From positions 202,560 through 266,559 of the forward strand of contig WLXD01000005.1 in the NCBI GenBank assembly GCA_012103255.1: a stretch of 64,000 bases of DNA, in the 5' to 3' direction. Origin of the DNA: Acidobacteriota bacterium. GTDB taxonomy: Bacteria > Acidobacteriota > UBA890 > WLXD01. The translations under genes and the position numbers were made by a program. The notes below the pieces were generated by a model. It had not been told where the DNA came from, ran no database searches, and saw only the letters and a program-made list of their open reading frames with translations. This document shows, piece by piece, positions 1 to 32,540 of this stretch. Every line of letters starts with the position of its first letter. The stretch's first letter is position 1.

Positions 1-1
1 T

Positions 2-832
2 TGCGCCTGTTGCAGGAATCGCGCGAACTCATCGAGACGCCCGATCTCGACTGACGGCGAGTTCTTCGTCGAGATCCTCGGCGCGGGCAACGGTCGGCCC
101 GGGGCGATCCGTGACACGGCGGGTCTTCTTCTCTGCGGCGGTGGCCGACGTGTCCTGATCGACTGCCCGGGCGGAATTGTCACCAAGCTTGCGCGCCTCG
201 ACGTGGCGCCCGAGAGCCTCGCGGCGGTGGTGATTACTCACGATCACGTCGATCATGTGTATGGATTTCCACATCTGGTTCACGCGCTCGCCATTGAACG
301 GTGTCTCGATCCGGTGATGGTTCTGGCCCCTGCGGAAGCACTCGACACGATTGATCGAGCCCTCGCGGCGTACGGGTTGATTGGCGATAGCTATCCGGTC
401 GTGCAGGGCGACGTGGTGGACCCGGGCGAGCGCTCTGGGCGCCAGGTGGCTGGCATGCATCTACGCACAGGCTGGGCGCGTCACTCGCGTCCAACGCTTG
501 CCCTGCGCTGTGACATCGGCGGCACGAGCGTGGGCCTGACGTCGGACACACTCGCGACGACCAATCTGGATGGCCTCTTCGATGGCGTGCACACGCTGTT
601 TCACGATTGTGGTGGGTCACGTTCCACAAACGGTGGTTGGAGGGCGCATCATGCCACCGCTCACGACGCGGGAGTGATGGCGGCACGCGTCGGTGCTCAG
701 CGCCTTCTTCTGACCCATTTACCGCCGCTGAACGGCGATCTGGGGGAGCGATTACTCGAAGAGGCCGGGGCCGCGTTCGCCGGCCAGGTCGTCCTGGCGA
801 CAGACGGCGAGCGCGTCAGATTCGACACCTGA
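2..832 (+). CDS. MBL-fold metallo-hydrolase (RNase Z/ElaC-like superfamily); 5' end runs off the window start
   Basis: The frame is open from nt 2 and the upstream in-frame translation ...EFFVEILGAGNGRPGAIRDTAGLLLCGGGRRVLIDCPGG... looks like a beta-lactamase-fold N-terminus. The ORF-track start at 203 is a GTG inside this frame. The metal-binding motif VITHDHVDHVYG (HxHxDH) is present. The stop is TGA at 830-832. Confidence 0.7.
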   Translation, partial: CACCRNRANSSRRPISTDGEFFVEILGAGNGRPGAIRDTAGLLLCGGGRRVLIDCPGGIVTKLARLDVAPESLAAVVITHDHVDHVYGFPHLVHALAIERCLDPVMVLAPAEALDTIDRALAAYGLIGDSYPVVQGDVVDPGERSGRQVAGMHLRTGWARHSRPTLALRCDIGGTSVGLTSDTLATTNLDGLFDGVHTLFHDCGGSRSTNGGWRAHHATAHDAGVMAARVGAQRLLLTHLPPLNGDLGERLLEEAGAAFAGQVVLATDGERVRFDT

Positions 833-870
833 CGCCGCATTGTCTCGCGGTGCGGTAACCTCACGCCGCT

Positions 871-1494
871 ATGGAGGAAATGGACCTTGAGACAGTCCGA
901 CGCGCCTACTCGAGATGGGCGCGCGTGTATGACCTGGCGTTCGGGCCGGGAATGGTCAAGGCACGCAAACGGGGCATCTCGATGTTGCAGCTTGGGCGCG
1001 AAGCCAAGGTCCTCGAAGTCGGAGTTGGAACCGGACTCTCGCTGCCCTTTTTCCCATCTGATTGCCATGTGTACGGCGTCGACATCTCCAGGGACATGCT
1101 CGCGCGAGCCCACGAGAGGGCAGCGCATCCGCGACGGGGCTTGATCGAAGGGGATGTCGCACACCTTCCGTTCGATGATGGGACGTTCGACGGGATCCTG
1201 GCACCGTATGTTGTCTCGGCGGTACCCGATCCGGTTGCCATGCTGCGCGAGGTCCGTCGGGTGGCAAAAGCGGGTGCTCGTATCGTTCTCCTGAATCACT
1301 TTGCCAGCGAACACCCACTGCTCGCGGCGATCGAGCGGGCCATCAATCCCGCAACAACCCGGATGCTGGGATTTCATGCGGATTTTGATGTGCAGCCGCT
1401 GCTCGACGAGGTTGGACTCGCGGTGAGCGAGTCGGAGAAAGTGCCGCCGTTTGGCTACTGGCGCGCCCTGCGCGTTGACGGAGCAGAGGTATGA
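871..1494 (+). CDS. class I SAM-dependent methyltransferase (UbiE/COQ5-like, Methyltransf_11 type)
   Basis: It has the Gly-rich SAM motif VLEVGVGTGLSL. The acidic loop GVDISRDML and the downstream ...DGTFDGIL... block are typical of small-molecule methyltransferases. The start has an RBS-like ATGGAGGAAATGG context. The stop overlaps the next start (ATGA at 1491-1494). Confidence 0.8.
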   Translation: MEEMDLETVRRAYSRWARVYDLAFGPGMVKARKRGISMLQLGREAKVLEVGVGTGLSLPFFPSDCHVYGVDISRDMLARAHERAAHPRRGLIEGDVAHLPFDDGTFDGILAPYVVSAVPDPVAMLREVRRVAKAGARIVLLNHFASEHPLLAAIERAINPATTRMLGFHADFDVQPLLDEVGLAVSESEKVPPFGYWRALRVDGAEV

Positions 1495-2510
1495 GCGACA
1501 TTGTCGCGAGTGCGCCCCTGCGCGTCGATCTCGCTGGCGGGACGCTAGACCTGTGGCCGCTGTCGGTGCTGCACGAGGATGCGAGTACGGTGAATGTCGC
1601 GCTGAGCCTTCGCGCGCGCGCGTCCTACACGTCGACTCGCGGTGGGTGGCACTTCGAAGCGAGAGACCATGAGGCGGAGCTCAGGGTTGCTGCAGAAGGG
1701 CTACGCAAGGCTGCCGCGGCGGCCACCGATGGCGACTTCTTTGCGCTCGTGCTTAAGGTGCTCGACCACATCGACTGGAATGAGAGTGGGCACGTCGTGA
1801 CAAGCGTAGACGGCCCTCCTGGGGGCGGCCTCGCGGGTTCGTCGGCGCTGATGGTGGCGCTCCTCGGATTGGCGCACACGGGCGCCGGGCGTCGCCTGGA
1901 CCGCAAGCGGTGTCCCGCTCTTGCGCGTGACCTCGAGGCGCGCGTTCTTGGGCTGCCCACCGGGGTCCAGGACTACTACCCGGCGATCCATGGTGGTGCT
2001 CTTCACCTCGAGTACCAGCCCGGTGCGACGCACTGCAATCGGATTGCGGCCGATTTCGACGCGCTCGAGGCCCGGGCCGTCCTCGCCTACAGCGGCAAGC
2101 CACATGCCTCGGCGCCGTCCAACTGGAGCATCTATCGGCGGCGCCTTGAAGGGGAGCGGTTGGCCGTCGAGTCGTTTTCGGCCATTTCCCATGCTGCGGC
2201 CGCTGCCGCGAGCGCGCTGCGTAGGTCCGACTGGCGCCGACTGGGCGAGGCGATGACTAGCGATTGGGAGGCCCGGAAACGCCTCGATCCGGCGCTGGCA
2301 CCGCCAGCTCTGGTGGACCTGGAGACGGTTGGGCTCGAGGCGGGTGCGCGGGCCGCCAAGTGTTGCGGCGCTGCCTCGGGCGGAACGATGCTCTTCCTGC
2401 TCAAGCGACCGCGGGATCGCAGGCGGGTCGAAACCACCCTCAGCGAAGCGGGCGCGCGGATATTGCCCTTCAAGGTGGCCCGGACAGGACTCACGGTTCG
2501 CCGGCGATGA
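1491..2510 (+). CDS. GHMP-family sugar kinase, HddA/COG2605-like (sugar anomeric/7-phosphate kinase type)
   Basis: The N-terminal APLRVDLAGGTLDL motif is characteristic of HddA-like GHMP kinases. The ATP-binding GHMP motif PPGGGLAGSSALMVALLGL is present. The start overlaps the upstream stop and the stop overlaps the downstream start (ATGA at 2507-2510). Confidence 0.75.
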   Translation: MSDIVASAPLRVDLAGGTLDLWPLSVLHEDASTVNVALSLRARASYTSTRGGWHFEARDHEAELRVAAEGLRKAAAAATDGDFFALVLKVLDHIDWNESGHVVTSVDGPPGGGLAGSSALMVALLGLAHTGAGRRLDRKRCPALARDLEARVLGLPTGVQDYYPAIHGGALHLEYQPGATHCNRIAADFDALEARAVLAYSGKPHASAPSNWSIYRRRLEGERLAVESFSAISHAAAAAASALRRSDWRRLGEAMTSDWEARKRLDPALAPPALVDLETVGLEAGARAAKCCGAASGGTMLFLLKRPRDRRRVETTLSEAGARILPFKVARTGLTVRRR

Positions 2511-3322
2511 CTCTGGATTGGGCCGTGATTCCAGTCGCGGGGAGTGGTACGCGCATGCTTCCAGCGAGCGCCGTGATTCCCAAGGCGCTATTGCCGGTCG
2601 GCGCCTGGCCGATGCTTCATTGGGTCCTGGATGAGTGCGTGCGGGCCGGGATTGGCGGCGTCGCGATGATCGTGGGCCCCGATCAGCCATTGGTTCGCGA
2701 ATACGTGGAGGTTGCGATTGCAAGAGGTCGCGGCGCTGAGAACGATGATCTGGCCCGGTTGGGCAGGGGACTCGCGGAGCTGGAGCTTGAGTGGGTGGTT
2801 CAAACCGAACCTCGCGGCGTGGGCCACGCCTTCATGTTGGCCCGGCCCATCACCGGAGACTCACCGTATGGCGTGCTGTTACCGGATAACTGGTTTGAGG
2901 CCAAGCCGGGGGCGATAGCGCAGGTGACGACCGCATTCGAACGCACCGGCCATTGTGCGTTCGGTTTGACGCGCGTCGACCCGGAGGAGGCCTGGCTTTT
3001 CGGTAATGTGGGCGGCGTCGAGTTGGATTCGGCCGGAGGGGACACCTACAGGGTCGTCGGTCTACAGGACAAGTTGCCGGGAACCTTCGACGCCGAGCAG
3101 CCTGTACTACGGGGCTGTGCGCGCTACGTCGTTGATGGGCGCTTCTACGACGCGCTCGACGCTACCGGGCCACCGCCGGACGGAGAGTGGGATGACGTGC
3201 CCGCGTTCCAGGCATTGATCGCCGCAGATGGGTTAGCCGCGCAGCATATTCAAGGTCGCCACTACGACGTGGGACACATGGCCGGCTATTTGAGGGCGGC
3301 GGCCTATCTCGCTGAGCGATAG
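2507..3322 (+). CDS. sugar-1-phosphate nucleotidyltransferase, GalU (UTP-glucose-1-phosphate uridylyltransferase)-like
   Basis: The start is re-assigned to ATG 2507. The ORF-track 2264 start lies inside the upstream kinase and gives a non-protein-like extension. The N-terminus AVIPVAGSGTRMLPASAVIPKALLPV matches the GalU signature A(V/I)IPxAGxGTRxLPxTKxxPKEMLP. Confidence 0.75.
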   Translation: MTLDWAVIPVAGSGTRMLPASAVIPKALLPVGAWPMLHWVLDECVRAGIGGVAMIVGPDQPLVREYVEVAIARGRGAENDDLARLGRGLAELELEWVVQTEPRGVGHAFMLARPITGDSPYGVLLPDNWFEAKPGAIAQVTTAFERTGHCAFGLTRVDPEEAWLFGNVGGVELDSAGGDTYRVVGLQDKLPGTFDAEQPVLRGCARYVVDGRFYDALDATGPPPDGEWDDVPAFQALIAADGLAAQHIQGRHYDVGHMAGYLRAAAYLAER

Positions 3323-3924
3323 TCGCGAATAGCGCCGGTGATGACGCCGCGGACCTGAATTTGACCGTCAGGAATGTAGAGAGGCTCGCGACCATCCACG
3401 GTCGGTTCGAGCCGGACATGTGACGACTCGCGGTAGTAGCGGCCGATGGCCGTGACGTCTCCGCGAAGAAGCGCCAGAACCACCTCACCATCGCGAACAC
3501 CGGGTCGATCCTCGACGATCAGAAGGTCGCCCTCGGCCAGGGATTCGTCGGCGAGAGACGCCCCACGCACCCGCAGAAGAAATACGGGCACCGACGAAGC
3601 GAAGGTCGCTGGTACCTCGATGGTCTCGGTGGTGCCTACCGCTTCAATGGGGCGACCGGCGAGCAACTGGCCAAGCACGGGCGCTGCAAAGGAACTTCGC
3701 GAGTCCGGTTCGACGATTTCGAGTCCCCGTCCCTGATGCCGCGTCTTCCGGAGGTAGCCCTTTGAGACCAGTTGCTGCACATGCTTGTAGACGGTCGCGG
3801 GCGAGCTCAGGCCGAAGTGTTCGCCGATTTCCTCAAGGGTGGGGGCGTAGCCTCGATCGCGCACATAGCCGGCGATGTAGTCGAGGGTCTCTTTCTGCCG
3901 TTTTGTGAGATACATGGCTCGCAC
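3304..3924 (-). CDS. lexA: LexA repressor (SOS regulator, S24 peptidase)
   Basis: N-terminal wHTH: LTKRQKETLDYIAGYVRDRGYAPTLEEIGEHFGLSSPATVYKHVQQLVSKGYL. C-terminal S24 domain with the GASLADESLAEGDLLIVE ... ALLRGDVTAIG motifs (Ser/Lys dyad region). Confidence 0.9.
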   Translation of the reverse strand: MRAMYLTKRQKETLDYIAGYVRDRGYAPTLEEIGEHFGLSSPATVYKHVQQLVSKGYLRKTRHQGRGLEIVEPDSRSSFAAPVLGQLLAGRPIEAVGTTETIEVPATFASSVPVFLLRVRGASLADESLAEGDLLIVEDRPGVRDGEVVLALLRGDVTAIGRYYRESSHVRLEPTVDGREPLYIPDGQIQVRGVITGAIRDYRSAR

Positions 3925-4011
3925 AAGAAGAGTCGGATCCGGGAAGCATCGTCATGGTGAAGCGAAAGTCAAGTGAGTCGCGTTTCAGGCGAGGCGTTGT
4001 ACCCTCGTCAC

Positions 4012-4458
4012 ATGCGCTATCTAGCTCTGGATATCGGCACGAAACGTACCGGGCTGGCGGTCTCGGACGCCACCGGACTGATCGCTCGCCCGTACGACGT
4101 GATTACCGGCGCGGGCGATGTTGATCAACTTGTGGCGAGGCTACGCGAGGTCGTGGAGACGGAAGAGGTGGAGGCGGTCGTGCTCGGCCTTCCGCGGCGG
4201 CTCGGCGGAGAGGAGGGGCCAGAGGCCACTCGTGTTCGTGCCATCGCAGGGCAGATCGCAGGCGCGTTCCCGGTTCCGGTGTCCCTGTGGGATGAGCGCC
4301 TCAGTACGGTCGAGGCGACTGAACGGTTGATCGAAGCCGGCGTCCGTCGCAAAGCCCGCAAGGGCATGGTGGACAAGGTTGCCGCGGCGTTGATCCTGCA
4401 GAGTTTTCTGGACGCCGGTTCGCCTGATTCGGCGCGCCTCGCGGAGGCGCCAGCATGA
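4012..4458 (+). CDS. ruvX: Holliday-junction resolvase-like / pre-16S rRNA nuclease RuvX (YqgF)
   Basis: MRYLALDIGTKRTGLAVSD matches the YqgF/RNase H-like N-terminus. The ORF-track start at 3973 is an upstream extension. The conserved ...ERLSTVEA... motif is present. Confidence 0.85.
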   Translation: MRYLALDIGTKRTGLAVSDATGLIARPYDVITGAGDVDQLVARLREVVETEEVEAVVLGLPRRLGGEEGPEATRVRAIAGQIAGAFPVPVSLWDERLSTVEATERLIEAGVRRKARKGMVDKVAAALILQSFLDAGSPDSARLAEAPA

Positions 4459-5982: not shown

Positions 5983-6438
5983 GTGGGCGCACGGCATCGC
6001 GGGCGCGAGCGCGCAGTCCAGGCACTCTACGAGTGGGCGGTCACGGGACGGCGCCTGGACACTACTTTCGAGCGTTTCTGGCGCGTGCGCGACGAGTCGG
6101 ATGATGTTCGTCGTTTCGCAGAGCGACTCGTGCGCGGGGTCGCCGACAGCGCGGAGCACATCGATCGCTTGATCGATCATCAGGCAGTGAACTGGCGGCT
6201 CGACCGATTCAGCAACGTCGATCGGAGCATTCTCCGCATCGCGATCTGGGAAATGCTCAACGAGCCGGACACACCGTCGGCGGTGGTCATCGATGAAGCC
6301 ATCGAGCTGGGCAAGAAGTTCAGCGGCCCGGCGGCGGGTCCGTTTATCAACGGAATCCTGGACGGAGTACGGAAACGGCTCGCCGAGGAACCCGCGACGG
6401 CCGAGATGGAACATACGAACGAGGCAGGGGACGGATGA
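5983..6438 (+). CDS. nusB: transcription antitermination factor NusB
   Basis: RERAVQALYEW...RLDRFSNVDRSILRIAIWEML is the NusB fold signature. It sits directly after ribH, the conserved ribH-nusB synteny. Confidence 0.9.
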   Translation: MGARHRGRERAVQALYEWAVTGRRLDTTFERFWRVRDESDDVRRFAERLVRGVADSAEHIDRLIDHQAVNWRLDRFSNVDRSILRIAIWEMLNEPDTPSAVVIDEAIELGKKFSGPAAGPFINGILDGVRKRLAEEPATAEMEHTNEAGDG

Positions 6439-9209
6439 GCGAGTATCGACCTGCGGAATTCGAAGAGAAGTGGCGCGAGCGATGGGAACGCGAGGGCGTT
6501 TACCGTAGCAAGGTGGACTGGGAGCGGCCGAAGCACTACGCGCTGACAATGCTTCCTTATCCCAGCGGGGATCTGCATCTCGGGCATTGGTTCGCCATGG
6601 TCCCGTCCGATGCCCGCGCGCGTTTCAAACGCATGAAGGGATTCAACGTGCTCTTCCCGATGGGCTTCGACGCCTTTGGCCTTCCGGCCGAGAATGCAGC
6701 GATCCAACGCGGCATTCATCCGTGGAAATGGACCTACGAGAACATCGAGAACATGCGGCGCCAGTTTCGCAGCATGGGCGCAATGTTCGACTGGGAACGC
6801 GAAGCGGTCAGTTGCACCCCGGAGTTCTATCGTTGGACGGAGTGGTTCTTCAATCGGTTCCTCGAAGGAGGCCTGGCCTATCGCGGTGAGGCCCTGGTGA
6901 ACTGGTCAGAGTCGCTGCAGACCGTATTGGCCAACGAGCAGGTCATCGACGGAAAGGACGAGCGAACGGGTCAACCCGTCGTCCAGAAGCTCATGTCCCA
7001 GTGGTTCTTTCGCATCACGCAGTATGCAGACGAACTGCTCGAGTTCGACGAGATGGACTGGCCCGAGGCTATCCGCAAAGCGCAGACGAACTGGATCGGT
7101 CGGAGCGAAGGAGCGCGCGTCGCCTTCACGATCGAAGGCGAGACGTCGATCGAGGTCTTCACCACGCGGCCCGACACGTTGTGGGGCGCGACCTTCATGG
7201 TGCTCGCGCCCGAACACGACCTTGTCGATCAGCTCACCAGCGAAGACCAGCGTGAGCAAATCGCCGAGTACGTGGCTGCGGCCGCGAAGGCGAGTGAGAT
7301 TGAACGCAGTGCTGAAGACCGCGAGAAAACGGGCGTCTTCACGGGGAGCTACGCGCAGAATCCGGCCAGCGGCGAGAAGATTCCGATCTGGATCGCAGAC
7401 TACGTAATGGTTGGCTACGGGACCGGCGCGATCATGGCGGTTCCGGCACATGACCAGCGCGACTTCGAGTTCGCGCGGAAGTTCGATCTTGAGGTGCGGC
7501 CGGTGATTACCAGCCCTGAGGGGGTCGTAGACGCCGCAGCCATGACCGAGGCATACGTTGGCGCAGGGGCGATGTTCAACAGTGGTCCGATCGACGGCAC
7601 TCGCTGCACCGACTCCAAGGGTCGGTCCAATCCGGCGATCGCGGCGGCGATCGAGTGGCTTGAGGATCATGAAGTCGGCCGCGAAGCGATCAACTATCGG
7701 CTGCGCGATTGGTTGATCAGCCGGCAGCGCTACTGGGGATGCCCGATTCCGGTCGTTCGACGGGCGGATGGTGAATACGAGACGGTCCCGGACGACTCCT
7801 TGCCGGTCGAATTGCCGCAGGACGTCGAATTCATGCCGACGGGCAGAAGTCCACTGAAGTCGAATTCTGACTTCATGGCCGCCGTGGCCAAGGACGGTGG
7901 CCCCGCGGAGCGCGAAACGGACACCATGGACACCTTCATGTGCTCCTCCTGGTACCAGTACCGGTATCTGAGTCCCGGATACGACGGGGCGCCGTTCGAC
8001 CCTGAGGAAGCCGCGTACTGGTTGCCTGTGGATACGTACACAGGCGGCGCAGAGCACGCGACCATGCACCTGCTCTACACCCGGTTCTTCACGAAGGCGA
8101 TGCGCGATCTCGGCATGTTCGAAGACGCCGCCACGGTGATGCGCCAGCGCGGCCGGGATCCTGGTCGGATTTTCGATGAACCCATGGTTGTGCTGCGTAA
8201 CCAGGGACAGGTTCTAGGCGGAGAGCGCTCGGGCGATGTGGTTCGCGCAACGGGGTCGACTGTCGGCAACGTGTTGCATGCAGATCGTGTGGAGGTCGTC
8301 GGCGACGCACCGGCATCTTGCGAGCCCGACGAGATGGTTGGCGAGATTATGCGGCGTACCGAGAACATTCTCACCCTCACGGCTCCGGATGGCGGTCTGA
8401 TGACGGTTGAGGTCGAGCCTGATGCAAGCATCGATATCCCCGGAATCGACGGGGTCAACTCGGTCGGGCAGCTGCGCCATCACCTCGAAGTCCAACGCAT
8501 GTCCAAGAGCAAGGGCAACGTCGTCAATCCCGACGTTTGGGTCGATCGGCACGGTGCCGATGTGCTCAGGGCCTATCTGATGTTCGGGTTTGACTGGGCG
8601 AAGGGAGGTCCGTTCGACAGCGGCGGAATGCAGGGGGTCGCGCGCTGGCTGCAGGACGTCTGGGCGATAGGTACGACCCCTCCGACCGGACCTGGTGATC
8701 CCGAGCAAGAGGCGATGATCGAGCGCCGTCTCCACCAGACGATCGAGCAGGTTGAGCGAGGGCTCGAGGAGTTCAGCTTCAACACAGCGATTGCCGCCCT
8801 GATGGCGTTCCGGAACGACCTCCGGGCGGCACTGCGCGAAGATCATCTCGGGGACGACGCCTGGCGCGCCACGATGGACGTGATGGTGCGGCTCCTCGGC
8901 CCGTTCGCTCCGCATACAGCCGAAGAACTCTGGGAGCGACTGGGCGGCGACTTCAGCGTGCACGCGCAGGAGTGGCCGGCCTACGATCCGGAGAAGGCGG
9001 CCGAAGATACGGTCACGCTGGTGGTTTTGGTGAATGGTAAAGTCCGGGATCGGGTGGACGTCGCGGCGGACGTCGGACAAGACGAGGCCAGAACTCTGGG
9101 ACTCGCCACGGAAGGCGCGCGTCGCTACATTGGCGACAGTGGACCGCGGAAGGTGATCTTCATTCCGGCACGCAAGGGTCAGGAACCGAAGCTCAACATC
9201 GTCGTTTGA
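6435..9209 (+). CDS. leuS: leucyl-tRNA synthetase
   Basis: A 924-aa class I aaRS. It has the HIGH-type motif (PYPSGDLHLGHW) and the KMSKS motif (QRMSKSKGNVV). It is an intact long ORF. Confidence 0.97.
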   Translation: MSEYRPAEFEEKWRERWEREGVYRSKVDWERPKHYALTMLPYPSGDLHLGHWFAMVPSDARARFKRMKGFNVLFPMGFDAFGLPAENAAIQRGIHPWKWTYENIENMRRQFRSMGAMFDWEREAVSCTPEFYRWTEWFFNRFLEGGLAYRGEALVNWSESLQTVLANEQVIDGKDERTGQPVVQKLMSQWFFRITQYADELLEFDEMDWPEAIRKAQTNWIGRSEGARVAFTIEGETSIEVFTTRPDTLWGATFMVLAPEHDLVDQLTSEDQREQIAEYVAAAAKASEIERSAEDREKTGVFTGSYAQNPASGEKIPIWIADYVMVGYGTGAIMAVPAHDQRDFEFARKFDLEVRPVITSPEGVVDAAAMTEAYVGAGAMFNSGPIDGTRCTDSKGRSNPAIAAAIEWLEDHEVGREAINYRLRDWLISRQRYWGCPIPVVRRADGEYETVPDDSLPVELPQDVEFMPTGRSPLKSNSDFMAAVAKDGGPAERETDTMDTFMCSSWYQYRYLSPGYDGAPFDPEEAAYWLPVDTYTGGAEHATMHLLYTRFFTKAMRDLGMFEDAATVMRQRGRDPGRIFDEPMVVLRNQGQVLGGERSGDVVRATGSTVGNVLHADRVEVVGDAPASCEPDEMVGEIMRRTENILTLTAPDGGLMTVEVEPDASIDIPGIDGVNSVGQLRHHLEVQRMSKSKGNVVNPDVWVDRHGADVLRAYLMFGFDWAKGGPFDSGGMQGVARWLQDVWAIGTTPPTGPGDPEQEAMIERRLHQTIEQVERGLEEFSFNTAIAALMAFRNDLRAALREDHLGDDAWRATMDVMVRLLGPFAPHTAEELWERLGGDFSVHAQEWPAYDPEKAAEDTVTLVVLVNGKVRDRVDVAADVGQDEARTLGLATEGARRYIGDSGPRKVIFIPARKGQEPKLNIVV

Positions 9210-13375: not shown

Positions 13376-14284
13376 GTGGAGAGGGTCCGACTGGGCGGAT
13401 GGGAATTGGACTACCTGGAGTACCTCCGGGTAGAACTCGGTCGCTCGGACCGTACAATTCGGTCCTACTCGGCGGATCTCCGACAGTTCGACACATGGTG
13501 CGCCGACGCCAACGTCAATCCGTTGGACCTCAGGGCAAGCGACCTCCGCTCGTGGCTCGGATGGTTGGAGCAGCAAGGATGCTCCGGGCGAACTCGCGCC
13601 CGGAAGCTCTCTGCGCTTCGAGGTTTCTACAGGCGCCTCGTGGCTTCCGGCCGCGTCGAGGTTGATCCCACCGAACTGCTGAAGGCACGCGAGCGGACGC
13701 GTCCGCTCCCGAAGACACTGAGCTGGGACGAAGTCGAGCGGATCCTCGCCCAGCCGAATGTCGAAGGCCCATCAGGGCTCCGGGATCGGGCGATGCTCGA
13801 AGTGGCCTACGGTTGTGGGTTGCGGGTCTCCGAAGTGATCAGCCTGCAGCTCGGCGACATCGACGAGGAAGAGGGCTTTGTTCGCTGTTTTGGCAAGGGA
13901 AGTAAAGAACGTCTGGTTCCGATCGGCGATGAGGCGGCGCATTGGATTACGCGGTACGTCGAGCGCGGACGGGATGCCTTCGCCCTCGATTCGACAGAAC
14001 AGACGATCTTCCTGGGTCGTCGCGGCCGGCCGCTCACGCGGCAGTGGTTCGCCAAGCTCCTCAAGCGCTACGCGACCGATGCGGGCATCCCCCGATCTCG
14101 AGTAAGCCCTCACGTGCTTCGACACTCTTTCGCCACGCACCTCTTGGAAGCTGACGCTGATCTGCGGGCTGTTCAGGCGATGCTTGGCCACAGTCGCATC
14201 GCCACGACCGAGGTGTATACGCACGTGGATCGAGCCCGATTGAAACTTGTCTACGAGCGCCACCATCCGCGAGCGCATTCGTGA
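13376..14284 (+). CDS. xerD: site-specific tyrosine recombinase XerC/XerD family (chromosome dimer resolution type)
   Basis: The N-terminal SAM-like domain (LSALRGFYRRL) and the catalytic residues R...HVLRHSFATHLLEADADLRAVQAMLGHSRIATTEVYTHV (R-H-R-Y) are present. XerC versus XerD cannot be resolved by eye. It is not flanked by phage or IS genes. Confidence 0.8.
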   Translation: MERVRLGGWELDYLEYLRVELGRSDRTIRSYSADLRQFDTWCADANVNPLDLRASDLRSWLGWLEQQGCSGRTRARKLSALRGFYRRLVASGRVEVDPTELLKARERTRPLPKTLSWDEVERILAQPNVEGPSGLRDRAMLEVAYGCGLRVSEVISLQLGDIDEEEGFVRCFGKGSKERLVPIGDEAAHWITRYVERGRDAFALDSTEQTIFLGRRGRPLTRQWFAKLLKRYATDAGIPRSRVSPHVLRHSFATHLLEADADLRAVQAMLGHSRIATTEVYTHVDRARLKLVYERHHPRAHS

Positions 14285-16829: not shown

Positions 16830-19175
16830 CTAGGTTCTGACGCCGATAGCCTGGTACGTCCCTAGAGATAGGAACAACAGGTGTGGCGCCCATGCCGACA
16901 GAGGCGGCGGCAGTTGGTTCGCGTAGCCGAGAGCCTGGAAGACGCCGAACGCGATCCAGTAGGCGGCTACGAGTGCGACTGCGACGGCCACGCCCGTAAG
17001 CGTGCCGTGGCGGCCCATTCGGAATGCGAATGGAAGGCCGACCACGGTCATGACAAACACGATGGCCGGCGTGGCGATCTTCTGATGAAAGTCGACCAGC
17101 GCTCGGTGGGTTTCGTAGCCCTGCCGCTCGAGCAATTGAATGTGTCGACGCAGATCGAGCAGGCGCATCTGTTCAGGTAGCAGCTCGTTCTCGCGGAAAT
17201 ATTCCGGGTCGCGTTCCAGGTGCCCCATGCGGGCGAAACTGAACTCCTCGAGCGGTGACGGCTTGACCCGGTCGCCTTCACGGACGAAGAAGCGTCGCCA
17301 GCCGTCGCGAGCCTCCCAGGTGCCCTCGCGCCACTCGGCGATATCAGCGAACTCCATCCGAGCCATCGAGTTCTCGTCGCCAAGATAGAAGACCCGCAGA
17401 CCCAGGAACTGCGAGCTCGACTCCACGAATTCGTCGAAGTGGTAGACCACGTTGCCCTCGGCGAACACCCAGTTCTGCGACTGCAGCAGAATGACTGTGT
17501 CCGACGGGTCCATTGCTTCCTCGACCACCTTGGCTTGCTCAGCCGTGTACGGCAGCACGTACTCCTGGAGGGCGTACTGCCCCGCGGTGAGCAGGAGTGC
17601 CGGGACAAAGATCGGGACCATCAGTCGATAGAGGCTCACCCCGCCTGCCATGGCGGCCACGACCTCGCCGTGCTTCGCCATGAGACTGAAGACGGCCAAC
17701 ACCGTAACGACCGCAGCCATCGGCGTGATGTCGAAGACGATCTCCCACACGTAGTAGCTCAAGAAGGTGGGGATCAAGCCGGGATTGGTTACGTAGGACG
17801 CCTTGTCGATCCAGGTGCCCATGATGAACAGAACGATGAAGGCCGAGAACGTGAGCCCGTAGATGCTCAAGTAGTTGCGCATCACGAGCCTGTCGAGCGT
17901 CCGCGGGAAGGACGCACCGGTGTGGCTGGAGCGGAGCCGCACGGAACGGTGCAGAACACGCTTCGAGTACCAAGCGCGCAGGCCGTCCGCTGCCTGGAGC
18001 CAGATGGGCTCGATACGCCGCCATATGCCGAAGTCGACTTCGCGACTCTTCTTCCAGAGCAGCACGAGGGCTGCGATGGCCAGCACGACGTTGCCAGCCC
18101 AGATTCCCACGATTGGTGAGATCTGCCCCAGATCAGCTTGTTGTTCGCCGTTCTGCGCGAAGAAGTAGTACACGGCGATCACCACGATGCCGATAGCGAA
18201 CCCGCTTGCCGTTGTCTGTCTCTGAGTTGAGATGCCCAGCGGAAGCGCGATGAGGCCCATCACGATGCAGGCGAAGGGAAGCGCAAACTTCTTCTGGACC
18301 TCGACCCGCAGATCCCACGCCGGCTCGCCATTCGAATGACGCGCCGCGATCGCTGTGCGTAGTTCCGAGAGGTTCATCGAGCGAACGTCCTTGCCGAGCT
18401 CTCCGATGAAGGTGTTCTCTTCAGACCACACGAGTTCGCTGCGCGACTCGAACTCGGTCAGTGTCACGTCCGCCGGGTCGGCTCGCGATGCAATGACGAC
18501 CCCGTTGACCATCTCGATGTATGTCCGACGGTTCTCGGCATCGATCCGGGGGTAGGCGCGCTCTGCGCGGAGAATCGTCGGCGGATTCGAGTCCGTTCGC
18601 GCCGTAAACACACCGCGCCACTCGCTACCTTGATTGACGATGTCCTCGACGTAGAGGACAAGGTTCGGGAAGTCGTTGTTGAAGACGCGAGGTTTGACCT
18701 CGTTGGACAGCGCTCCGCCCTCGGCGATCTGTTCCCACTGAATCTCCACGAGTGATTGATTGCCCCAAGGCATCATCACGGTGTAGATCCAGCTTGTCGC
18801 TCCCCACAGTAGAGCGGACGCGATGAGTACCGGCGGCAGTAGGTGAAGCAGGCTGACCCCCGCGGCGCGAAGCGCGACGATTTCGAAGTCCGCCGACATT
18901 CTGCCGAAGGCGATCAACGAACCGACGAGGAGCCCCATTGGGATGGTCAGAACCATGATGTGAGGCAGGCTGTAGACGATGACCCACAACACGCTACTGA
19001 GCTCGGCGCCGTACTCGATCCACAGCTGCGAGACGCGGAGTAGCGCGCGCATCAGAAAGAGGAACGTGAAGACACAGAACGCCAGCAGGGTGGGGGTCAG
19101 GAGTTCGAGGATCACGTGGCGCCACAGGATCAATGCGGGACGCGCTCTGAGGATGGACGCCGCGGCTGCGCTCAT
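16830..19175 (-). CDS. fused LptF-LptG-type LPS export permease (two YjgP/YjgQ domains in one polypeptide)
   Basis: The start is moved to ATG 19175 (MSAAAASILRARPALILWRHVILELL...). The first half carries a YjgP/YjgQ-like TM segment (RHVILELLTPTLLAFCVFTFLFLMRALLRVSQLW). The second half (RLVMRNYLSIYGLTFSAFIVLFIMGTWID...) repeats the same domain. The ATG overlaps the stop of the upstream GT2 gene (ATGA). Confidence 0.75.
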   Translation of the reverse strand: MSAAAASILRARPALILWRHVILELLTPTLLAFCVFTFLFLMRALLRVSQLWIEYGAELSSVLWVIVYSLPHIMVLTIPMGLLVGSLIAFGRMSADFEIVALRAAGVSLLHLLPPVLIASALLWGATSWIYTVMMPWGNQSLVEIQWEQIAEGGALSNEVKPRVFNNDFPNLVLYVEDIVNQGSEWRGVFTARTDSNPPTILRAERAYPRIDAENRRTYIEMVNGVVIASRADPADVTLTEFESRSELVWSEENTFIGELGKDVRSMNLSELRTAIAARHSNGEPAWDLRVEVQKKFALPFACIVMGLIALPLGISTQRQTTASGFAIGIVVIAVYYFFAQNGEQQADLGQISPIVGIWAGNVVLAIAALVLLWKKSREVDFGIWRRIEPIWLQAADGLRAWYSKRVLHRSVRLRSSHTGASFPRTLDRLVMRNYLSIYGLTFSAFIVLFIMGTWIDKASYVTNPGLIPTFLSYYVWEIVFDITPMAAVVTVLAVFSLMAKHGEVVAAMAGGVSLYRLMVPIFVPALLLTAGQYALQEYVLPYTAEQAKVVEEAMDPSDTVILLQSQNWVFAEGNVVYHFDEFVESSSQFLGLRVFYLGDENSMARMEFADIAEWREGTWEARDGWRRFFVREGDRVKPSPLEEFSFARMGHLERDPEYFRENELLPEQMRLLDLRRHIQLLERQGYETHRALVDFHQKIATPAIVFVMTVVGLPFAFRMGRHGTLTGVAVAVALVAAYWIAFGVFQALGYANQLPPPLSAWAPHLLFLSLGTYQAIGVRT

Positions 19176-19855
19176 CGGGATGCCTCGTAGAAGCGCGCGA
19201 GAGTTAGTGGGCTCATGCCGAGCGCGTGGGCCGCGCGCAGGAGCCACATCTTCAGGATGGTCCGGACCGGGCCACATTGCTCCCAGCGGCGAGCCGACGT
19301 GACGACGGTGTCGTTGAGCCGCGCGACCCTGCCGGTGCGTCGCAGTTGAGCGCTAAACTGGACGTCTTCGAAGAGCGGCAACGGCGGGAACCCGCCGAGG
19401 TGGTCGAAAACGTCTCGCCGGACGAACATGGCCTGATCGCCTGTCGCAATCCCGGTCAGCCGACTACGGATCGTGATCATGCGGCCGATAAGGCCGAGAA
19501 GAGGGCGAACCGAGTTGAGTCGCAGCCGAAAGAATCCGCCTGAGGCACCATCATCAATGGCGGCACGGATGCTCTTGAGAGCCCCTGCGGGCAGTTCGGT
19601 GTCGGCGTGAAGAAACAGAATGATCTCTCCGTCGCCCAAGGCGGCACCCGCGTTCATCTGACTGGCGCGGCCTCGAGGAGCTGCGGCGTAGGGGAGTCCT
19701 GAGCTGCGCAGGGCGCTAGCGGTTCCATCCGTGCTCATGCCGTCGACGATCACGACGTCGGTCGCGGCCGCGGCATGCATGTCACGGAGTCGATCGAGCA
19801 AGAGCGGCAGAGCGCTCGACTCGTTGTGTACGGGGACCACGACGTTTACGCGCAA
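19172..19855 (-). CDS. family-2 glycosyltransferase (GT-A fold)
   Basis: Only the C-terminal ~230 aa of the 540-aa ORF-track entry is protein-like: RVNVVVPVHNESSALPLLLDRL ... DVVIVDGMSTDGT ... ILFLHADTELP. The upstream part is antisense to rnz. The start is tentatively TTG 19855; an alternative is ATG 19969. The stop TGA overlaps the LptFG start. Confidence 0.6.
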   Translation of the reverse strand: MRVNVVVPVHNESSALPLLLDRLRDMHAAAATDVVIVDGMSTDGTASALRSSGLPYAAAPRGRASQMNAGAALGDGEIILFLHADTELPAGALKSIRAAIDDGASGGFFRLRLNSVRPLLGLIGRMITIRSRLTGIATGDQAMFVRRDVFDHLGGFPPLPLFEDVQFSAQLRRTGRVARLNDTVVTSARRWEQCGPVRTILKMWLLRAAHALGMSPLTLARFYEASR

Positions 19856-21506: not shown

Positions 21507-22280
21507 GTGCGCATTGCCGTCTGCATGAAAGCCGTTGTCGACTCCCAGGCTCGCATCGAGCTCGATGGGGACGGCAACTTGCGTCAAGATCAGTTGCGCT
21601 TCGAGGTCAACGAATACGACCTCTACGCGGTCGAAGAAGCGATTCGACTCGCCGAGAGCGATGAAGGTCACGTCACGGTGATCTCGGCAGGGACTGCCGA
21701 CGCCGTCCAGGGACTCCGAAAGGGGCTTGCCATGGGAGCGGCCGACGCGATTCACGTCGATTGTGATCCCGACGACCTGGACGCCAGCGGCGTTGCCGCC
21801 GTGCTGGCGGCTGCGCTGCACGACGGCGGCTACGATCTCGTGCTCGCTGGGGTCGAGTCGGACGATCTCGGTGGCTCTCAGGTGGGCGTGCTGCTCGCCG
21901 AGGCCCTGGGGTACGCGTCGACGACACTCGTCGTAGGGACGAACGAGCCCGTTGATGGCGCGATGCAAGTTCGGCGCGAACTCGAGGGCGGCGAGCACGC
22001 GAACGTCCAGGTGCAGTTCCCAGCTGTGCTCACGATTCAGAGTGGTATCAACGAGCCGCGCTATCCGAGTCTCAAAGGGATCATGGCAGCGAAGCGCAAG
22101 GACCTGGCGGTGAAGGGCCTGGCCGATCTTGGCTTCGACGGAGCGCCGGCGCGCCGCGTCGAATCGCTCGGCCTCACCATCCCGCCGCCGCGTGAGCTTG
22201 CGCGGATGCTGGAGGGCGGTGCGGAAGAGACTGCCGCTGAACTTGTGCGGATCCTGCGCGAAGAGGAGAAGGCACTATGA
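21507..22280 (+). CDS. etfB: electron transfer flavoprotein beta subunit
   Basis: The start is re-assigned to GTG 21507, preceded by AGGAGA (21495-21500). VRIAVCMKAVVDSQARIEL ... matches the EtfB/FixA N-terminus (MKIxVCxKxVPD). Confidence 0.85.
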   Translation: MRIAVCMKAVVDSQARIELDGDGNLRQDQLRFEVNEYDLYAVEEAIRLAESDEGHVTVISAGTADAVQGLRKGLAMGAADAIHVDCDPDDLDASGVAAVLAAALHDGGYDLVLAGVESDDLGGSQVGVLLAEALGYASTTLVVGTNEPVDGAMQVRRELEGGEHANVQVQFPAVLTIQSGINEPRYPSLKGIMAAKRKDLAVKGLADLGFDGAPARRVESLGLTIPPPRELARMLEGGAEETAAELVRILREEEKAL

Positions 22281-31985: not shown

Positions 31986-32540
31986 GTGTTCTGGGCGGGG
32001 ATCACCCTCGTCGCTTTGGCGGCCTGGCTCGCCTTCACGTACAACCGTCTGGTTGCGCTTGCCCGACGTGGCGACGGCGCGTGGGCTGACATCGACACGC
32101 AGTTGAAGCGACGATCGGATCTCGTCCCCGCTCTTGTCGAGACCGTCAAGGGTTACGCGTCGCACGAGCGAGAGACTCTCGAGGAAGTGGTTCGGCGTCG
32201 CACGGTCGCTACGGATTCGCCACACGCCCCCGACGCAGAGACTCGCGCCGCAGAAAACGGCCTCGCATCGGCGATGCGAGGCCTCTTCGCGCTCGCGGAA
32301 GACTACCCCGAGCTCCGCGCCAACGACCGCTTTGGGATGCTTCAGGGGCAACTGGCGGAGATCGAGGACGCCCTCCAGGCAGCGCGTCGCTACTACAACG
32401 CCGTTGTGCGCGATCTGAATACGCGTATCGCTACATTTCCGACGGTTCTCGTCGCGGGTCTTCTCGGCTTCGGCCGTAGAGACTTCTTCGAGCTCGACAG
32501 CCCGTTGGAGCGAACTGTACCCAAGGCGGACCTGGGATGA
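31986..32540 (+). CDS. lemA: LemA family protein
   Basis: An N-terminal TM helix is followed by the LemA core (YNRLVALARRGDGAWADIDTQLKRRSDLVPALVETVKGYASHERETLEEV...). The start is GTG. Confidence 0.85.
   Translation: MFWAGITLVALAAWLAFTYNRLVALARRGDGAWADIDTQLKRRSDLVPALVETVKGYASHERETLEEVVRRRTVATDSPHAPDAETRAAENGLASAMRGLFALAEDYPELRANDRFGMLQGQLAEIEDALQAARRYYNAVVRDLNTRIATFPTVLVAGLLGFGRRDFFELDSPLERTVPKADLG

What the first reader, a model, noticed from the sequence alone, without database searches (positions are those of the whole stretch)
2..3322. Overlapping four-gene operon: MBL hydrolase, SAM methyltransferase, HddA-like GHMP kinase, GalU-like nucleotidyltransferase
Four co-directional genes are packed with ATGA start/stop overlaps (1491-1494, 2507-2510) and a 38-nt gap, so they are very likely co-translated. 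A COG2605/HddA-type anomeric kinase (PLRVDLAGGTLDL, PPGGGLAGSS) directly followed by a GalU-type NTP transferase (AVIPVAGSGTRMLP) is the minimal kinase + pyrophosphorylase logic for making an NDP-activated sugar, or another nucleotide-activated metabolite, from a free sugar (salvage-type route). The coupled methyltransferase and beta-lactamase-fold hydrolase suggest the product is further tailored. I do not recognise this four-gene combination as a named pathway. The operon is convergent with lexA.
Basis: partly seen in the sequence, partly recalled or inferred. Interest (0 to 1): 0.5.

Follow-up and report, generated by a model that had tools for sequence, protein, structure and literature searches.

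The report
Mixed tail of an envelope-gene string
The four overlapping genes are real, but they are the changeable end of a long run of cell-envelope and housekeeping genes in one group of Acidobacteria, not a dedicated four-step sugar pathway; only the sugar kinase and the GalU-like enzyme might work together, and that is untested.

Summary
There are four co-directional ORFs: an MBL hydrolase, a methyltransferase (MT), a GHMP kinase (KIN) and an NTP transferase (NT). ATGA overlaps sit at 1491-1494 and 2507-2510, there is a 38-nt gap, and lexA is convergent.

- Fetched upstream DNA shows the genes close an 11-gene same-strand string: bamA-lpxD-fabZ-lpxA-lpxI-Gfo/Idh/MocA-ybdK(GCS2)-MBL-MT-KIN-NT.
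- In about 35 related loci, GCS2 is always kept where the contig reaches it, and MBL and MT nearly always.
- The position between MT and NT is a changeable slot. It holds the kinase in one clade, and a FabG-like reductase, a membrane protein or nothing in the sister clade. Within the kinase clade, MT or MBL is sometimes lost.
- The MT is a close relative of R-type phospholipid N-methyltransferase PmtA, with 10 of 13 functional residues kept. It is not an obvious sugar tailor.
- The kinase belongs to a family spread across Acidobacteriota and sister to HddA/WcbL heptokinases. In 79 other species it has no nucleotidyltransferase nearby. In Vicinamibacterales it sits divergently next to nagZ-ldcA-mpl.
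- The NT is a small, distinct GalU-like subfamily. It keeps the catalytic residues but has altered sugar-pocket and interface residues.

All substrates remain unknown. Interest is modest.

The parts
1..54 (+). 3' end of a ybdK-type carboxylate-amine ligase (GCS2) gene, the gene immediately upstream of the MBL gene.
   Evidence: L001 places the GCS2 gene at 7425-8564, and window position 1 equals L001 8511. The protein passes the NCBIfam YbdK subfamily cut-off, 259 vs 176 bits. GCS2 is conserved upstream of MBL in every related locus long enough to show it.
2..832 (+). MBL-fold metallo-hydrolase of the YhfI/RNase Z/Apyc1-like phosphodiesterase type. Its true start is uncertain.
   Evidence: Pfam Lactamase_B_2 scores 57 bits. 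NCBIfam RNase Z scores 83 bits, below the 252-293 cut-offs, and the cyclic-nucleotide phosphodiesterase model scores 59. The best PDB matches are 6kns, RNase Z, 1zkp and 7t28. The HxHxDH motif and all invariant columns are kept. There is no ATG, GTG or TTG at the homologous start. PGAP calls a 328-aa product that starts upstream of the window.
871..1494 (+). Class I SAM methyltransferase closely related to R-type phospholipid N-methyltransferase PmtA. The start could instead be the ATG at 880.
   Evidence: It matches the Legionella PmtA model over its full length at 150 bits, against a cut-off of 390. PDB 8ys9, Rubellimicrobium PmtA, scores 117.7 bits over the full length, while the next structure scores 46. 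Ten of the 13 Rt-PmtA functional residues named in PMC11446283 are conserved.
1491..2510 (+). GHMP-family sugar kinase, a member of an Acidobacteriota-wide family that is sister to HddA/WcbL heptose-7-phosphate 1-kinases.
   Evidence: Both Pfam GHMP domains are found. The HddA equivalog scores 73 against a cut-off of 600. The family profile matches 3k85, 4n3o and 4usk at 185, 167 and 160 bits. The WcbL catalytic residues R13, D22, the Ser loop, Q162 and D163 correspond to invariant R11, D20, S117/S118, Q160 and D161. At least 596 genome hits were found.
2507..3322 (+). GalU-like sugar-1-phosphate nucleotidyltransferase of a small distinct subfamily with the signatures PDNWF, GNVGGV, LRGCARY and GEWDDVPAFQ.
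   Evidence: Pfam NTP_transferase is found. GalU TIGR01099 scores 126 against a cut-off of 327. About 100 clusters share at least 46% identity, then there is a sharp drop to true GalU at 35% or less. The start at 2507 keeps the GxGTR loop and matches the N-termini of homologues.
3304..3924 (-). lexA, convergent with the string. Its 3' end overlaps the NT 3' end by 19 nt.
   Evidence: TIGR00498 scores 153 bits against a cut-off of 111. The convergent overlap recurs in L083 and L087-L089. lexA is absent in L003.

Best explanation
The four genes are the last four of a long, tightly packed, same-strand string of envelope and housekeeping genes. The string is bamA-lpxD-fabZ-lpxA-lpxI-Gfo/Idh/MocA-ybdK-MBL-MT-KIN-NT, and it is closed by convergent lexA. 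It is conserved in one lineage of Acidobacteriota. I read the tail as a mosaic, not a dedicated four-step pathway.

- **NT.** This is the defining terminal gene. It is a GalU-derived nucleotidyltransferase that keeps the catalytic Arg, Lys, Gln and Asp residues but has a remodelled sugar pocket. Inferred role: it makes a UDP-sugar for envelope glycans.
- **MT.** This is an R-type PmtA-like enzyme. Inferred role: it N-methylates a membrane lipid head group such as phosphatidylethanolamine.
- **MBL.** This is a YhfI/RNase Z-like phosphodiesterase of unknown substrate.
- **KIN.** This belongs to an Acidobacteriota-wide sister family of HddA/WcbL. It sits in a changeable slot between MT and NT, and the gene tree suggests it arrived there once, in the ancestor of one clade. 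Inferred chemistry: ATP-dependent phosphorylation of the anomeric hydroxyl of a sugar or sugar phosphate.

In this clade the kinase may feed the NT as a salvage branch (sugar to sugar-1-phosphate to UDP-sugar). I put that at about 40%. The NT does not depend on the kinase, and the kinase family does not depend on this NT.

Shown: gene identities at family level, the overlaps, the synteny pattern and residue conservation. Inferred: all substrates, co-transcription, and any kinase-NT coupling.
For: **Context.** Ten kb upstream carries bamA, lpxD, fabZ, lpxA, lpxI, Gfo/Idh/MocA and GCS2, with gaps of 5 nt or less or with overlaps from bamA through to GCS2 (the GCS2-MBL junction depends on the unresolved MBL start). 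Downstream lie ruvX, mltG, ribH, nusB, leuS, lptE, holA, rpsT and murJ. Promoter and terminator matches are no more frequent than chance.

**Synteny in about 35 loci that carry the NT subfamily**
- The slot upstream of NT holds KIN in L001, L003, L083 and L090-L097.
- It holds a FabG-like SDR in about 15 loci; this SDR passes the FabG subfamily cut-off, 266 vs 222 bits.
- It is empty in L088, L103 and L104.
- It holds a 307-aa membrane protein in L099 (and apparently in L098, where only the matching ~900-nt gap was seen).
- MT is lost in L083, L095 and L097, and MBL is lost in L093.

**Tree.** A neighbour-joining tree of NT shows that slot content follows phylogeny, with a single KIN clade. 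L100 (SDR) and L103 (empty) have nearly identical NTs.

**NT pocket.** The NT signature motifs are identical in both clades, so its substrate probably does not change when the kinase is present.

**Kinase elsewhere.** Of 80 genome loci, 79 have no GalU-family NTase among 1249 neighbouring genes.

**MT.** PDB 8ys9 scores 117.7 bits over the full length, and 10 of 13 functional residues are kept.

**Overlaps.** 4-nt overlaps also join unrelated genes in this window.
Against: - KIN and NT are directly adjacent in all clade-A loci, though overlapping only in this organism. GHMP anomeric kinase followed by an NTP transferase is an established two-step logic (HddA/HddC, FKP), so a real functional pair is not excluded.
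- The KIN clade is a single evolutionary event, so the synteny statistics say little either way.
- I could not test whether sister-clade genomes carry the kinase elsewhere, or whether these genomes have a separate canonical GalU.
- In L087 all five genes from GCS2 to NT overlap by 4 nt. That could still reflect one pathway that I do not recognise.
- No biochemical data exist for any of the four subfamilies.
Confidence: 0.6

Rival explanations
1. MBL, MT, KIN and NT form one dedicated pathway. The kinase and the pyrophosphorylase activate a free sugar to an NDP-sugar, and the methyltransferase and the MBL hydrolase then tailor it.
For: All four genes are co-directional, with two ATGA overlaps and one 38-nt gap. 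The domain families are compatible with sugar-nucleotide chemistry. The full set recurs in the distant relative L003.
Against: - MT is missing in L083, L095 and L097, and MBL is missing in L093, although KIN-NT is retained there.
- The sister clade keeps MBL-MT-NT without the kinase.
- The closest characterised relative of the MT, by a wide margin, is a phospholipid N-methyltransferase, and its lipid-binding and catalytic residues are kept.
- ATGA overlaps also join unrelated genes in this window.
Confidence: 0.08
2. This is an amino-sugar salvage model for the cell wall. KIN would be an anomeric GlcNAc/MurNAc kinase, and NT would uridylylate the product. Together they would be a non-orthologous counterpart of the AmgK-MurU peptidoglycan recycling shunt.
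For: - In 32-40 of 72 kinase loci, of the Vicinamibacterales type, the kinase is divergent from nagZ(GH3)-ldcA(S66)-mpl. The gap is 28 nt in L044, and murB and murA lie further along in L084.
- An independent arrangement, tdk> nagZ< KIN>, occurs in L070.
- A ROK kinase and a DedA/VTT protein lie near the kinase in Pyrinomonadaceae.
- The NT keeps Gln99, the counterpart of the uridine-binding Q109 of GalU.
- GHMP kinases can take HexNAc: GALK2 (2a2c) appears among the remote hits.
Against: - The nagZ adjacency is mainly one inherited syntenic block that also carries polX, rodZ and thiE.
- Other lineages place the kinase next to accA/Rce1-like genes or unrelated genes.
- The closest characterised relatives are heptokinases, not HexNAc kinases.
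- The NT is only remotely similar to MurU: 27 bits against a cut-off of 250, and 4y7t at E 4e-4.
- No paper in the library links a GHMP kinase to peptidoglycan recycling.
Confidence: 0.14
3. This is a heptose activation model. KIN would be a true heptose-7-phosphate 1-kinase with HddA function, and NT would make an NDP-heptose for the LPS core or a capsule. GmhA and GmhB would be encoded elsewhere, or the MBL would stand in as the phosphatase.
For: - The HddA-type structures are by far the closest: 185, 167 and 160 bits against 89 for the next class.
- All WcbL catalytic residues are invariant, including Q162, which the WcbL paper links to accommodating the heptose.
- The genes sit at the end of a lipid A and outer-membrane cluster.
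Against: - The kinase scores 73 against a cut-off of 600 for the HddA equivalog, at about 25% identity.
- No gmhA, gmhB or heptosyltransferase was found in the 10 kb upstream or in the annotated parts of the window.
- The NT is GalU-type, not HddC/ManC-type.
- MBL is dispensable in L093, and the NT persists without the kinase in the sister clade.
Confidence: 0.12

Closest known systems
[quoted passage not shown]
   Same: A GHMP kinase lies directly upstream of an NTP_transferase-family enzyme. The kinase family is closest to HddA-type structures, and the catalytic residues R13, D22, the Ser loop, Q162 and D163 are conserved.
   Different: The kinase is far below the HddA equivalog cut-off, 73 vs 600 bits, at about 25% identity. 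The partner NTase is GalU-like, not HddC-like. No gmhA or gmhB lies nearby. The pairing is confined to one clade.
GalU (UTP--glucose-1-phosphate uridylyltransferase)
   Same: The match covers the full length at about 30% identity. The counterparts of A16, G17, R21, K31, Q109, G114, D137 and K202 (E. coli and K. pneumoniae numbering) are conserved.
   Different: It scores below the TIGR01099 cut-off, 126 vs 327 bits. The substitutions are K27 to A, E32 to A, R108 to V and E201 to D, and VEKP becomes QDKL. The subfamily-specific motifs PDNWF, GNVGGV, LRGCARY and GEWDDVPAFQ replace the GalU sugar and lid motifs. The tetramer-interface residues are not kept.
AmgK-MurU (anomeric MurNAc/GlcNAc kinase plus uridylyltransferase; peptidoglycan recycling bypass)
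   Same: Both have a two-gene kinase-plus-NTP_transferase logic. The kinase family sits next to nagZ-ldcA-mpl in many Acidobacteriota.
   Different: From my own knowledge, AmgK has an unrelated aminoglycoside-phosphotransferase-type fold. The NT is only remotely similar to MurU, at 27 bits against a cut-off of 250. This is an analogy only, and it is untested.
FKP (bifunctional L-fucokinase/GDP-fucose pyrophosphorylase, Bacteroides)
   Same: It pairs a GHMP kinase with a nucleotidyltransferase for sugar salvage. The fucokinase domain is the second-closest structural class.
   Different: FKP is a fused protein and here the two genes are separate. The score is 46 against a cut-off of 721. FKP uses GTP, whereas the NT here has a GalU-like uridine pocket.
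R-type phospholipid N-methyltransferase PmtA (Rubellimicrobium thermophilum, PDB 8YS9)
   Same: The match covers the full length at 117.7 bits. Y10, W13, Y17, F21, R29, G53, D73, D99, S120 and H147 are conserved.
   Different: H117 is Y, V121 is A and W172 is F. The score is below the Legionella PmtA equivalog cut-off, 150 vs 390 bits. The lipid substrate is untested.
YhfI / RNase Z / Apyc1-type MBL phosphodiesterases
   Same: It has the MBL fold with the HxHxDH motif. The best PDB and NCBIfam matches are 6kns, RNase Z, 1zkp, 7t28 and NF041851. Homologues hit Pfam Anti-Pycsar_Apyc1.
   Different: It falls below every equivalog cut-off. From my own knowledge of RNase Z, and not checked here, it should also lack the RNase Z exosite. 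Its substrate is unknown.

Membership tests
GHMP kinase superfamily | Pfam GHMP_kinases_N and GHMP_kinases_C domains above their gathering scores, with the P-loop PxGxGLxSSA. | tested here: met
   The N and C domains score 40.4 and 31.8 bits against cut-offs of 22.3 and 21. PPGGGLAGSS is present.
[quoted passage not shown] | A score at or above the NCBIfam equivalog cut-off (NF049969, 600 bits). | tested here: not met
   The score is 72.9 bits.
[quoted passage not shown] | Catalytic residues equivalent to WcbL R13, D22, S118-120, Q162 and D163. | tested here: met
   R11, D20, S117/S118, Q160 and D161 are invariant in the 20-sequence family alignment. The WcbL residues are taken from PMC4691232.
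[quoted passage not shown] | Genomic association with gmhA, gmhB and an HddC-type guanylyltransferase. | tested here: not met
   None was found in the 10 kb upstream, in the roughly 40 kb of annotated downstream sequence, or in 79 other kinase loci. Whole genomes were not searchable.
GalU | A score at or above the TIGR01099 cut-off (326.8 bits). | tested here: not met
   The score is 125.8 bits.
GalU | Catalytic and uridine-binding residues R21, K31, Q109, G114, D137 and K202. | tested here: met
   R16, K26, Q99, G104, D127 and K189 are conserved.
GalU | Glucose-binding, ribose-binding and tetramer residues E201, E32, K27 and R108. | tested here: not met
   E201 is D, E32 is A, K27 is A and R108 is V. 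These positions vary or are replaced throughout the subfamily.
AmgK/MurU recycling shunt | An NTase that reaches the MurU equivalog cut-off (NF045761, 250 bits). | tested here: not met
   The score is 27.3 bits and covers only the N-terminal loop. PDB 4y7t matches at E 4e-4.
AmgK/MurU recycling shunt | Kinase activity on MurNAc or GlcNAc at C1. | not testable with these tools
   This needs an enzyme assay. The only evidence here is gene-neighbourhood association with nagZ-ldcA-mpl.
R-type PmtA phospholipid N-methyltransferase | Full-length homology to a characterised PmtA, with the catalytic Tyr10 and the SAM- and head-group-binding residues. | tested here: met
   8ys9 scores 117.7 bits over residues 4-195, and 10 of 13 residues, including Y10, are conserved.
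R-type PmtA phospholipid N-methyltransferase | A score at or above the NCBIfam PmtA (Legionella) equivalog cut-off (390 bits). | tested here: not met
   The score is 150 bits. The model is a narrow equivalog, so this is weak evidence against function.
RNase Z | A score at or above the equivalog cut-offs (252-293 bits). | tested here: not met
   The best scores are 83 and 82 bits, and they match mainly the N-terminal half.
Single four-gene operon or pathway | Conserved co-occurrence of all four genes in relatives. | tested here: not met
   The full set occurs only in L001/window and L003. MT, MBL or KIN is missing in the other 30 or so loci.
Single four-gene operon or pathway | Co-transcription as one unit. 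| not testable with these tools
   No RNA data are available. Consensus scans found nothing above chance. The string extends upstream to bamA with no sizeable gaps.

The most novel reading that the evidence does not exclude
The Acidobacteriota-wide GHMP kinase family would be a previously unrecognised anomeric amino-sugar (GlcNAc/MurNAc) kinase of peptidoglycan recycling. In this lineage it would be teamed with a GalU-derived uridylyltransferase. Together they would be a non-orthologous replacement of the AmgK-MurU shunt that makes UDP-MurNAc or UDP-HexNAc directly from recycled wall sugars.
Probability: 0.12. Interest if true: 0.6.

Novelty: new member of a known kind. Interest (0 to 1): 0.27.

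Why it matters
If the kinase and the NT do act in series, they would define a new sugar-salvage route into the envelope glycans of Acidobacteriota, a phylum that is abundant but poorly studied biochemically.

The kinase family has at least 596 species-level hits and no characterised member. Its repeated position next to nagZ-ldcA-mpl makes a role in cell-wall recycling directly testable.

The PmtA-like gene predicts methylated PE or phosphatidylcholine in these bacteria.

As it stands, the locus mainly teaches caution. In compact genomes, ATGA overlaps and shared strand do not imply a shared pathway.

Tried and rejected
1. **HddA/HddC orthology.** Rejected on NCBIfam cut-offs, the GalU-type partner and the absence of gmhA and gmhB nearby.
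2. **A four-gene block conserved in relatives.** Rejected by tblastn synteny tables over 80 genome loci and 34 metagenome loci, and by the NT tree.
3. **An NTase of another type next to the kinase in other Acidobacteriota.** A GalU-family HMM run against 1249 neighbouring proteins found only the NT of L003.
4. **Promoter and terminator scan to delimit the operon.** Nothing above chance.
5. **SOS-box-like inverted repeat upstream of lexA.** None found.
6. **Literature linking GHMP kinases to peptidoglycan recycling, or PmtA to Acidobacteria.** None found.
7. **First neighbour clustering.** Single linkage over all ORFs was swamped by spurious GC-rich ORFs. My first gene caller missed genes whose longest ORF overlapped a neighbour. 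Both were replaced.
8. **Other kinase contexts** (pabB-like, GT2/PMT_2, PRTase, PLP decarboxylase, HEAT). These were uninformative.
9. **UDP/CDP-heptose literature.** It concerns HldE-type beta-heptose enzymes and is not relevant to a GalU-type NT.
10. **Not attempted:** structure prediction, because it could not decide the substrates.

Full report
**Observation**

The window opens inside an ORF that runs to 832. This is an MBL-fold protein, and the frame is open from position 2. Three more + strand ORFs follow, at 871-1494, 1491-2510 and 2507-3322.

- The ATGA start/stop overlaps at 1491-1494 and 2507-2510 and the 38-nt gap are exactly as described.
- lexA (3304-3924, - strand) passes its equivalog cut-off. 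It converges on the last gene with a 19-nt overlap of the 3' ends.
- Pfam confirms Lactamase_B_2, Methyltransf_11, GHMP_kinases_N/C and NTP_transferase, all above their gathering scores.
- GC by codon position matches the neighbouring housekeeping genes.
- The N-termini of homologues, and PGAP's own calls, support the starts at 871, 1491 and 2507. Other gene callers start the NT at 2555, which would remove the essential GxGTR loop.
- The source is a metagenome-assembled Acidobacteria bacterium (GKS06_16715; NKB89855-NKB89858).

**What each gene is**

No protein reaches an NCBIfam equivalog cut-off.

- *Kinase.* It scores 73 bits against HddA (cut-off 600). A profile of its family matches the three HddA-type structures at 185, 167 and 160 bits, and the next class, fucokinase and mevalonate kinase, at about 89. 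The WcbL catalytic residues R13, D22, the Ser loop, Q162 and D163 (PMC4691232) are invariant in the family as R11, D20, S117/S118, Q160 and D161.
- *NT.* It scores 126 bits against GalU (cut-off 327). It belongs to a compact subfamily of about 100 clusters that share at least 46% identity, followed by a sharp drop to true GalU at 35% or less. I mapped it on the residues defined for K. pneumoniae and E. coli GalU (PMC11796359) using the alignments.
  - Kept: A16, G17, R21, K31, Q109, G114, D137 and K202.
  - Changed: K27 to A, E32 to A, R108 to V and E201 to D.
  - The GalU sugar and lid motifs are replaced by the subfamily-invariant PDNWF, GNVGGV, LRGCARY and GEWDDVPAFQ.
- *MT.* It matches the R-type phospholipid N-methyltransferase PmtA of Rubellimicrobium (8YS9) over its full length at 117.7 bits. 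The next structure scores 46 bits. Ten of the 13 residues that the structure paper shows to bind SAM, the head group or phosphate are conserved, including the essential Tyr10 (PMC11446283).
- *MBL.* It resembles YhfI/RNase Z/Apyc1-type phosphodiesterases.

**Surroundings**

A Logan contig that encodes the identical kinase supplied 10 kb upstream (L001).

- Upstream lie clp-type ATPase, bamA, lpxD, fabZ, lpxA, lpxI, a Gfo/Idh/MocA oxidoreductase and a YbdK-type GCS2 ligase, then the four genes. The oxidoreductase's best NCBIfam hit is UDP-GlcNAc 3-dehydrogenase (194 bits, cut-off 450). The GCS2 ligase passes its subfamily cut-off.
- From bamA through GCS2 the genes are on one strand, with overlaps or gaps of 5 nt or less. 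The GCS2-MBL junction depends on the unresolved MBL start.
- There is no isomerase or phosphatase upstream.
- Downstream lie ruvX, mltG, ribH, nusB, leuS, lptE, holA, rpsT and murJ. Further on are dtd, an integrase-family (XerC-like) gene, a polyA-polymerase-family gene, metK, an LptF/G ORF, a GT2, ETF genes and others.
- Consensus promoter and terminator scans show nothing above chance.
- 4-nt overlaps also join ruvX/mltG, nusB/leuS and the integrase-family gene with the polyA-polymerase-family gene.

The four genes are therefore the tail of a long envelope and housekeeping string, and an overlap here is not evidence of a shared pathway.

**Comparative synteny of the NT**

I combined contigs that encode NT homologues with a metagenome scan and mapped the neighbours by tblastn.

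- GCS2 is present wherever the contig reaches it, MBL and MT nearly always. lexA is convergent everywhere except L003.
- The position between MT and NT varies:
  - the kinase, in L001, L003, L083 and L090-L097;
  - a FabG-like SDR, in about 15 loci, which passes the FabG subfamily cut-off;
  - nothing, in L088, L103 and L104;
  - a 307-aa membrane protein with no Pfam hit, in L099 (L098 shows a matching ~900-nt gap but was not read). L099 also has a Mut7-C/PCMT fusion inserted between GCS2 and MBL.
- Within the kinase clade, MT is lost in L083, L095 and L097, and MBL is lost in L093.
- A neighbour-joining tree of NT shows one kinase clade and one SDR/none/membrane-protein clade. L100 (SDR) and L103 (empty) have nearly identical NTs.

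The kinase-NT adjacency therefore represents a single evolutionary event in a changeable slot. The NT signature motifs are the same in both clades.

**Comparative context of the kinase**

A genome scan found at least 596 species-level matches, almost all labelled Acidobacteriota. Of the 80 loci kept, only L003 has the NT, MT or MBL within 8 kb. A GalU-family HMM finds no other NTase among 1249 neighbouring genes.

- In 32-40 of 72 loci, of the Vicinamibacterales type, the kinase is divergent from nagZ(GH3)-ldcA(S66)-mpl. The gap is 28 nt in L044, and pxpBC-like genes, murB and murA lie beyond in L084.
- L070 shows an independent tdk> nagZ< KIN> arrangement.
- Pyrinomonadaceae have ROK<, Usp>, DedA/VTT>, KIN>.
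- Terriglobia have dnaE> accA> KIN> Rce1-like>.
- Other contexts are uninformative.

**Most likely mechanism**

I read the locus as a mosaic.

- The NT is a catalytically competent nucleotidyltransferase that probably uses UTP, since the uridine-binding Gln is kept. Its sugar pocket is remodelled. It probably supplies an activated sugar for envelope glycans.
- The MT probably N-methylates a membrane lipid head group.
- The MBL is a phosphodiesterase of unknown substrate.
- The kinase probably phosphorylates the anomeric hydroxyl of a sugar or sugar phosphate.

The kinase may feed the NT in this clade as a salvage branch. I put that at about 40%. Neither partner depends on the other across evolution. 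All substrate statements are inferences from family chemistry and gene neighbourhood.

**Comparison with known systems**

- The arrangement works like HddA/HddC, FKP or AmgK/MurU, that is, an anomeric kinase followed by a pyrophosphorylase.
- It fails the membership tests for HddA, GalU, MurU and FKP on curated cut-offs.
- For HddA/HddC it also lacks the pathway partners.
- For GalU it also lacks the sugar-binding and interface residues.
- The PmtA relationship is the strongest single functional lead.

**Novelty and score**

These are uncharacterised subfamilies of well-known superfamilies, arranged in a lineage-specific way. Nothing is mechanistically new.

The most novel reading still open is a GHMP-type peptidoglycan amino-sugar kinase that replaces AmgK. 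I give it about 12% probability.

Overall interest is 0.27.

Noticed in passing
window 1-210 (L001 8340-8720): The MBL gene has no ATG, GTG or TTG where its homologues start, about 10 codons or fewer before 'VEILGAG'. The only in-frame starts are 40 or more codons upstream, which would overlap the GCS2 gene by 95-209 nt (PGAP picks the longest, 328 aa), or the GTG at 203, which would delete conserved N-terminal strands. The ORF is otherwise intact, with all invariant residues. This could be a non-canonical start or a reinitiation event.
   Followed up: partly
window 3304-3322; L087 8848-8867; L088 and L089 8806-8825; L083 9878-9932: The 3' ends of the convergent NT and lexA genes overlap by 19-20 nt (55 nt in L083). 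The overlap is conserved across both NT clades, so there is no room for a terminator between them. lexA is absent in L003. I found no SOS-box-like inverted repeat upstream of lexA (3925-3972).
   Followed up: partly
L099 5062-5985 and 2362-3627; L087 7246-8004: The slot between the PmtA-like MT and the NT holds different genes in different lineages. These are the GHMP kinase, a FabG-like SDR, or a 307-aa multi-pass membrane protein with no Pfam or NCBIfam hit. L099 also has a Mut7-C RNase/PCMT fusion inserted between GCS2 and MBL. L100 (SDR) and L103 (no slot gene) have almost identical NTs.
   Followed up: yes
L044 6866-8001; L084 1-9000; L070 6076-9005: In Vicinamibacterales-type genomes the kinase family is divergent from nagZ-ldcA-mpl (28-nt spacer in L044), with pxpBC-like genes, murB and murA beyond in L084. 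A separate lineage (L070) has tdk> nagZ< KIN>. This is a lead for a role in cell-wall sugar recycling.
   Followed up: partly
L001 6442-7419 (upstream of the window): The Gfo/Idh/MocA gene that follows lpxI has UDP-GlcNAc 3-dehydrogenase as its best NCBIfam hit (194 bits, cut-off 450). From my own knowledge that enzyme is the GnnA type. This hints that the lineage may make lipid A based on GlcN3N. No GnnB-type aminotransferase was seen nearby.
   Followed up: no
window 16830-19277 (-) and 24366-25061 (-): An 815-aa ORF carries two LptF/LptG-type permease stretches, which may be an lptF-lptG fusion. A 231-aa ORF matches only part of an ATP-dependent DNA ligase, which may be a fragment or a miscalled start.
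   Followed up: no
window 4455-4458, 6435-6438, 14281-14284, 22277-22280, 32537-32540: 4-nt start/stop overlaps are frequent in this genome. Several join functionally unrelated genes: ruvX/mltG, nusB/leuS, and an integrase-family (XerC-like) gene with a polyA-polymerase-family gene.
   Followed up: yes
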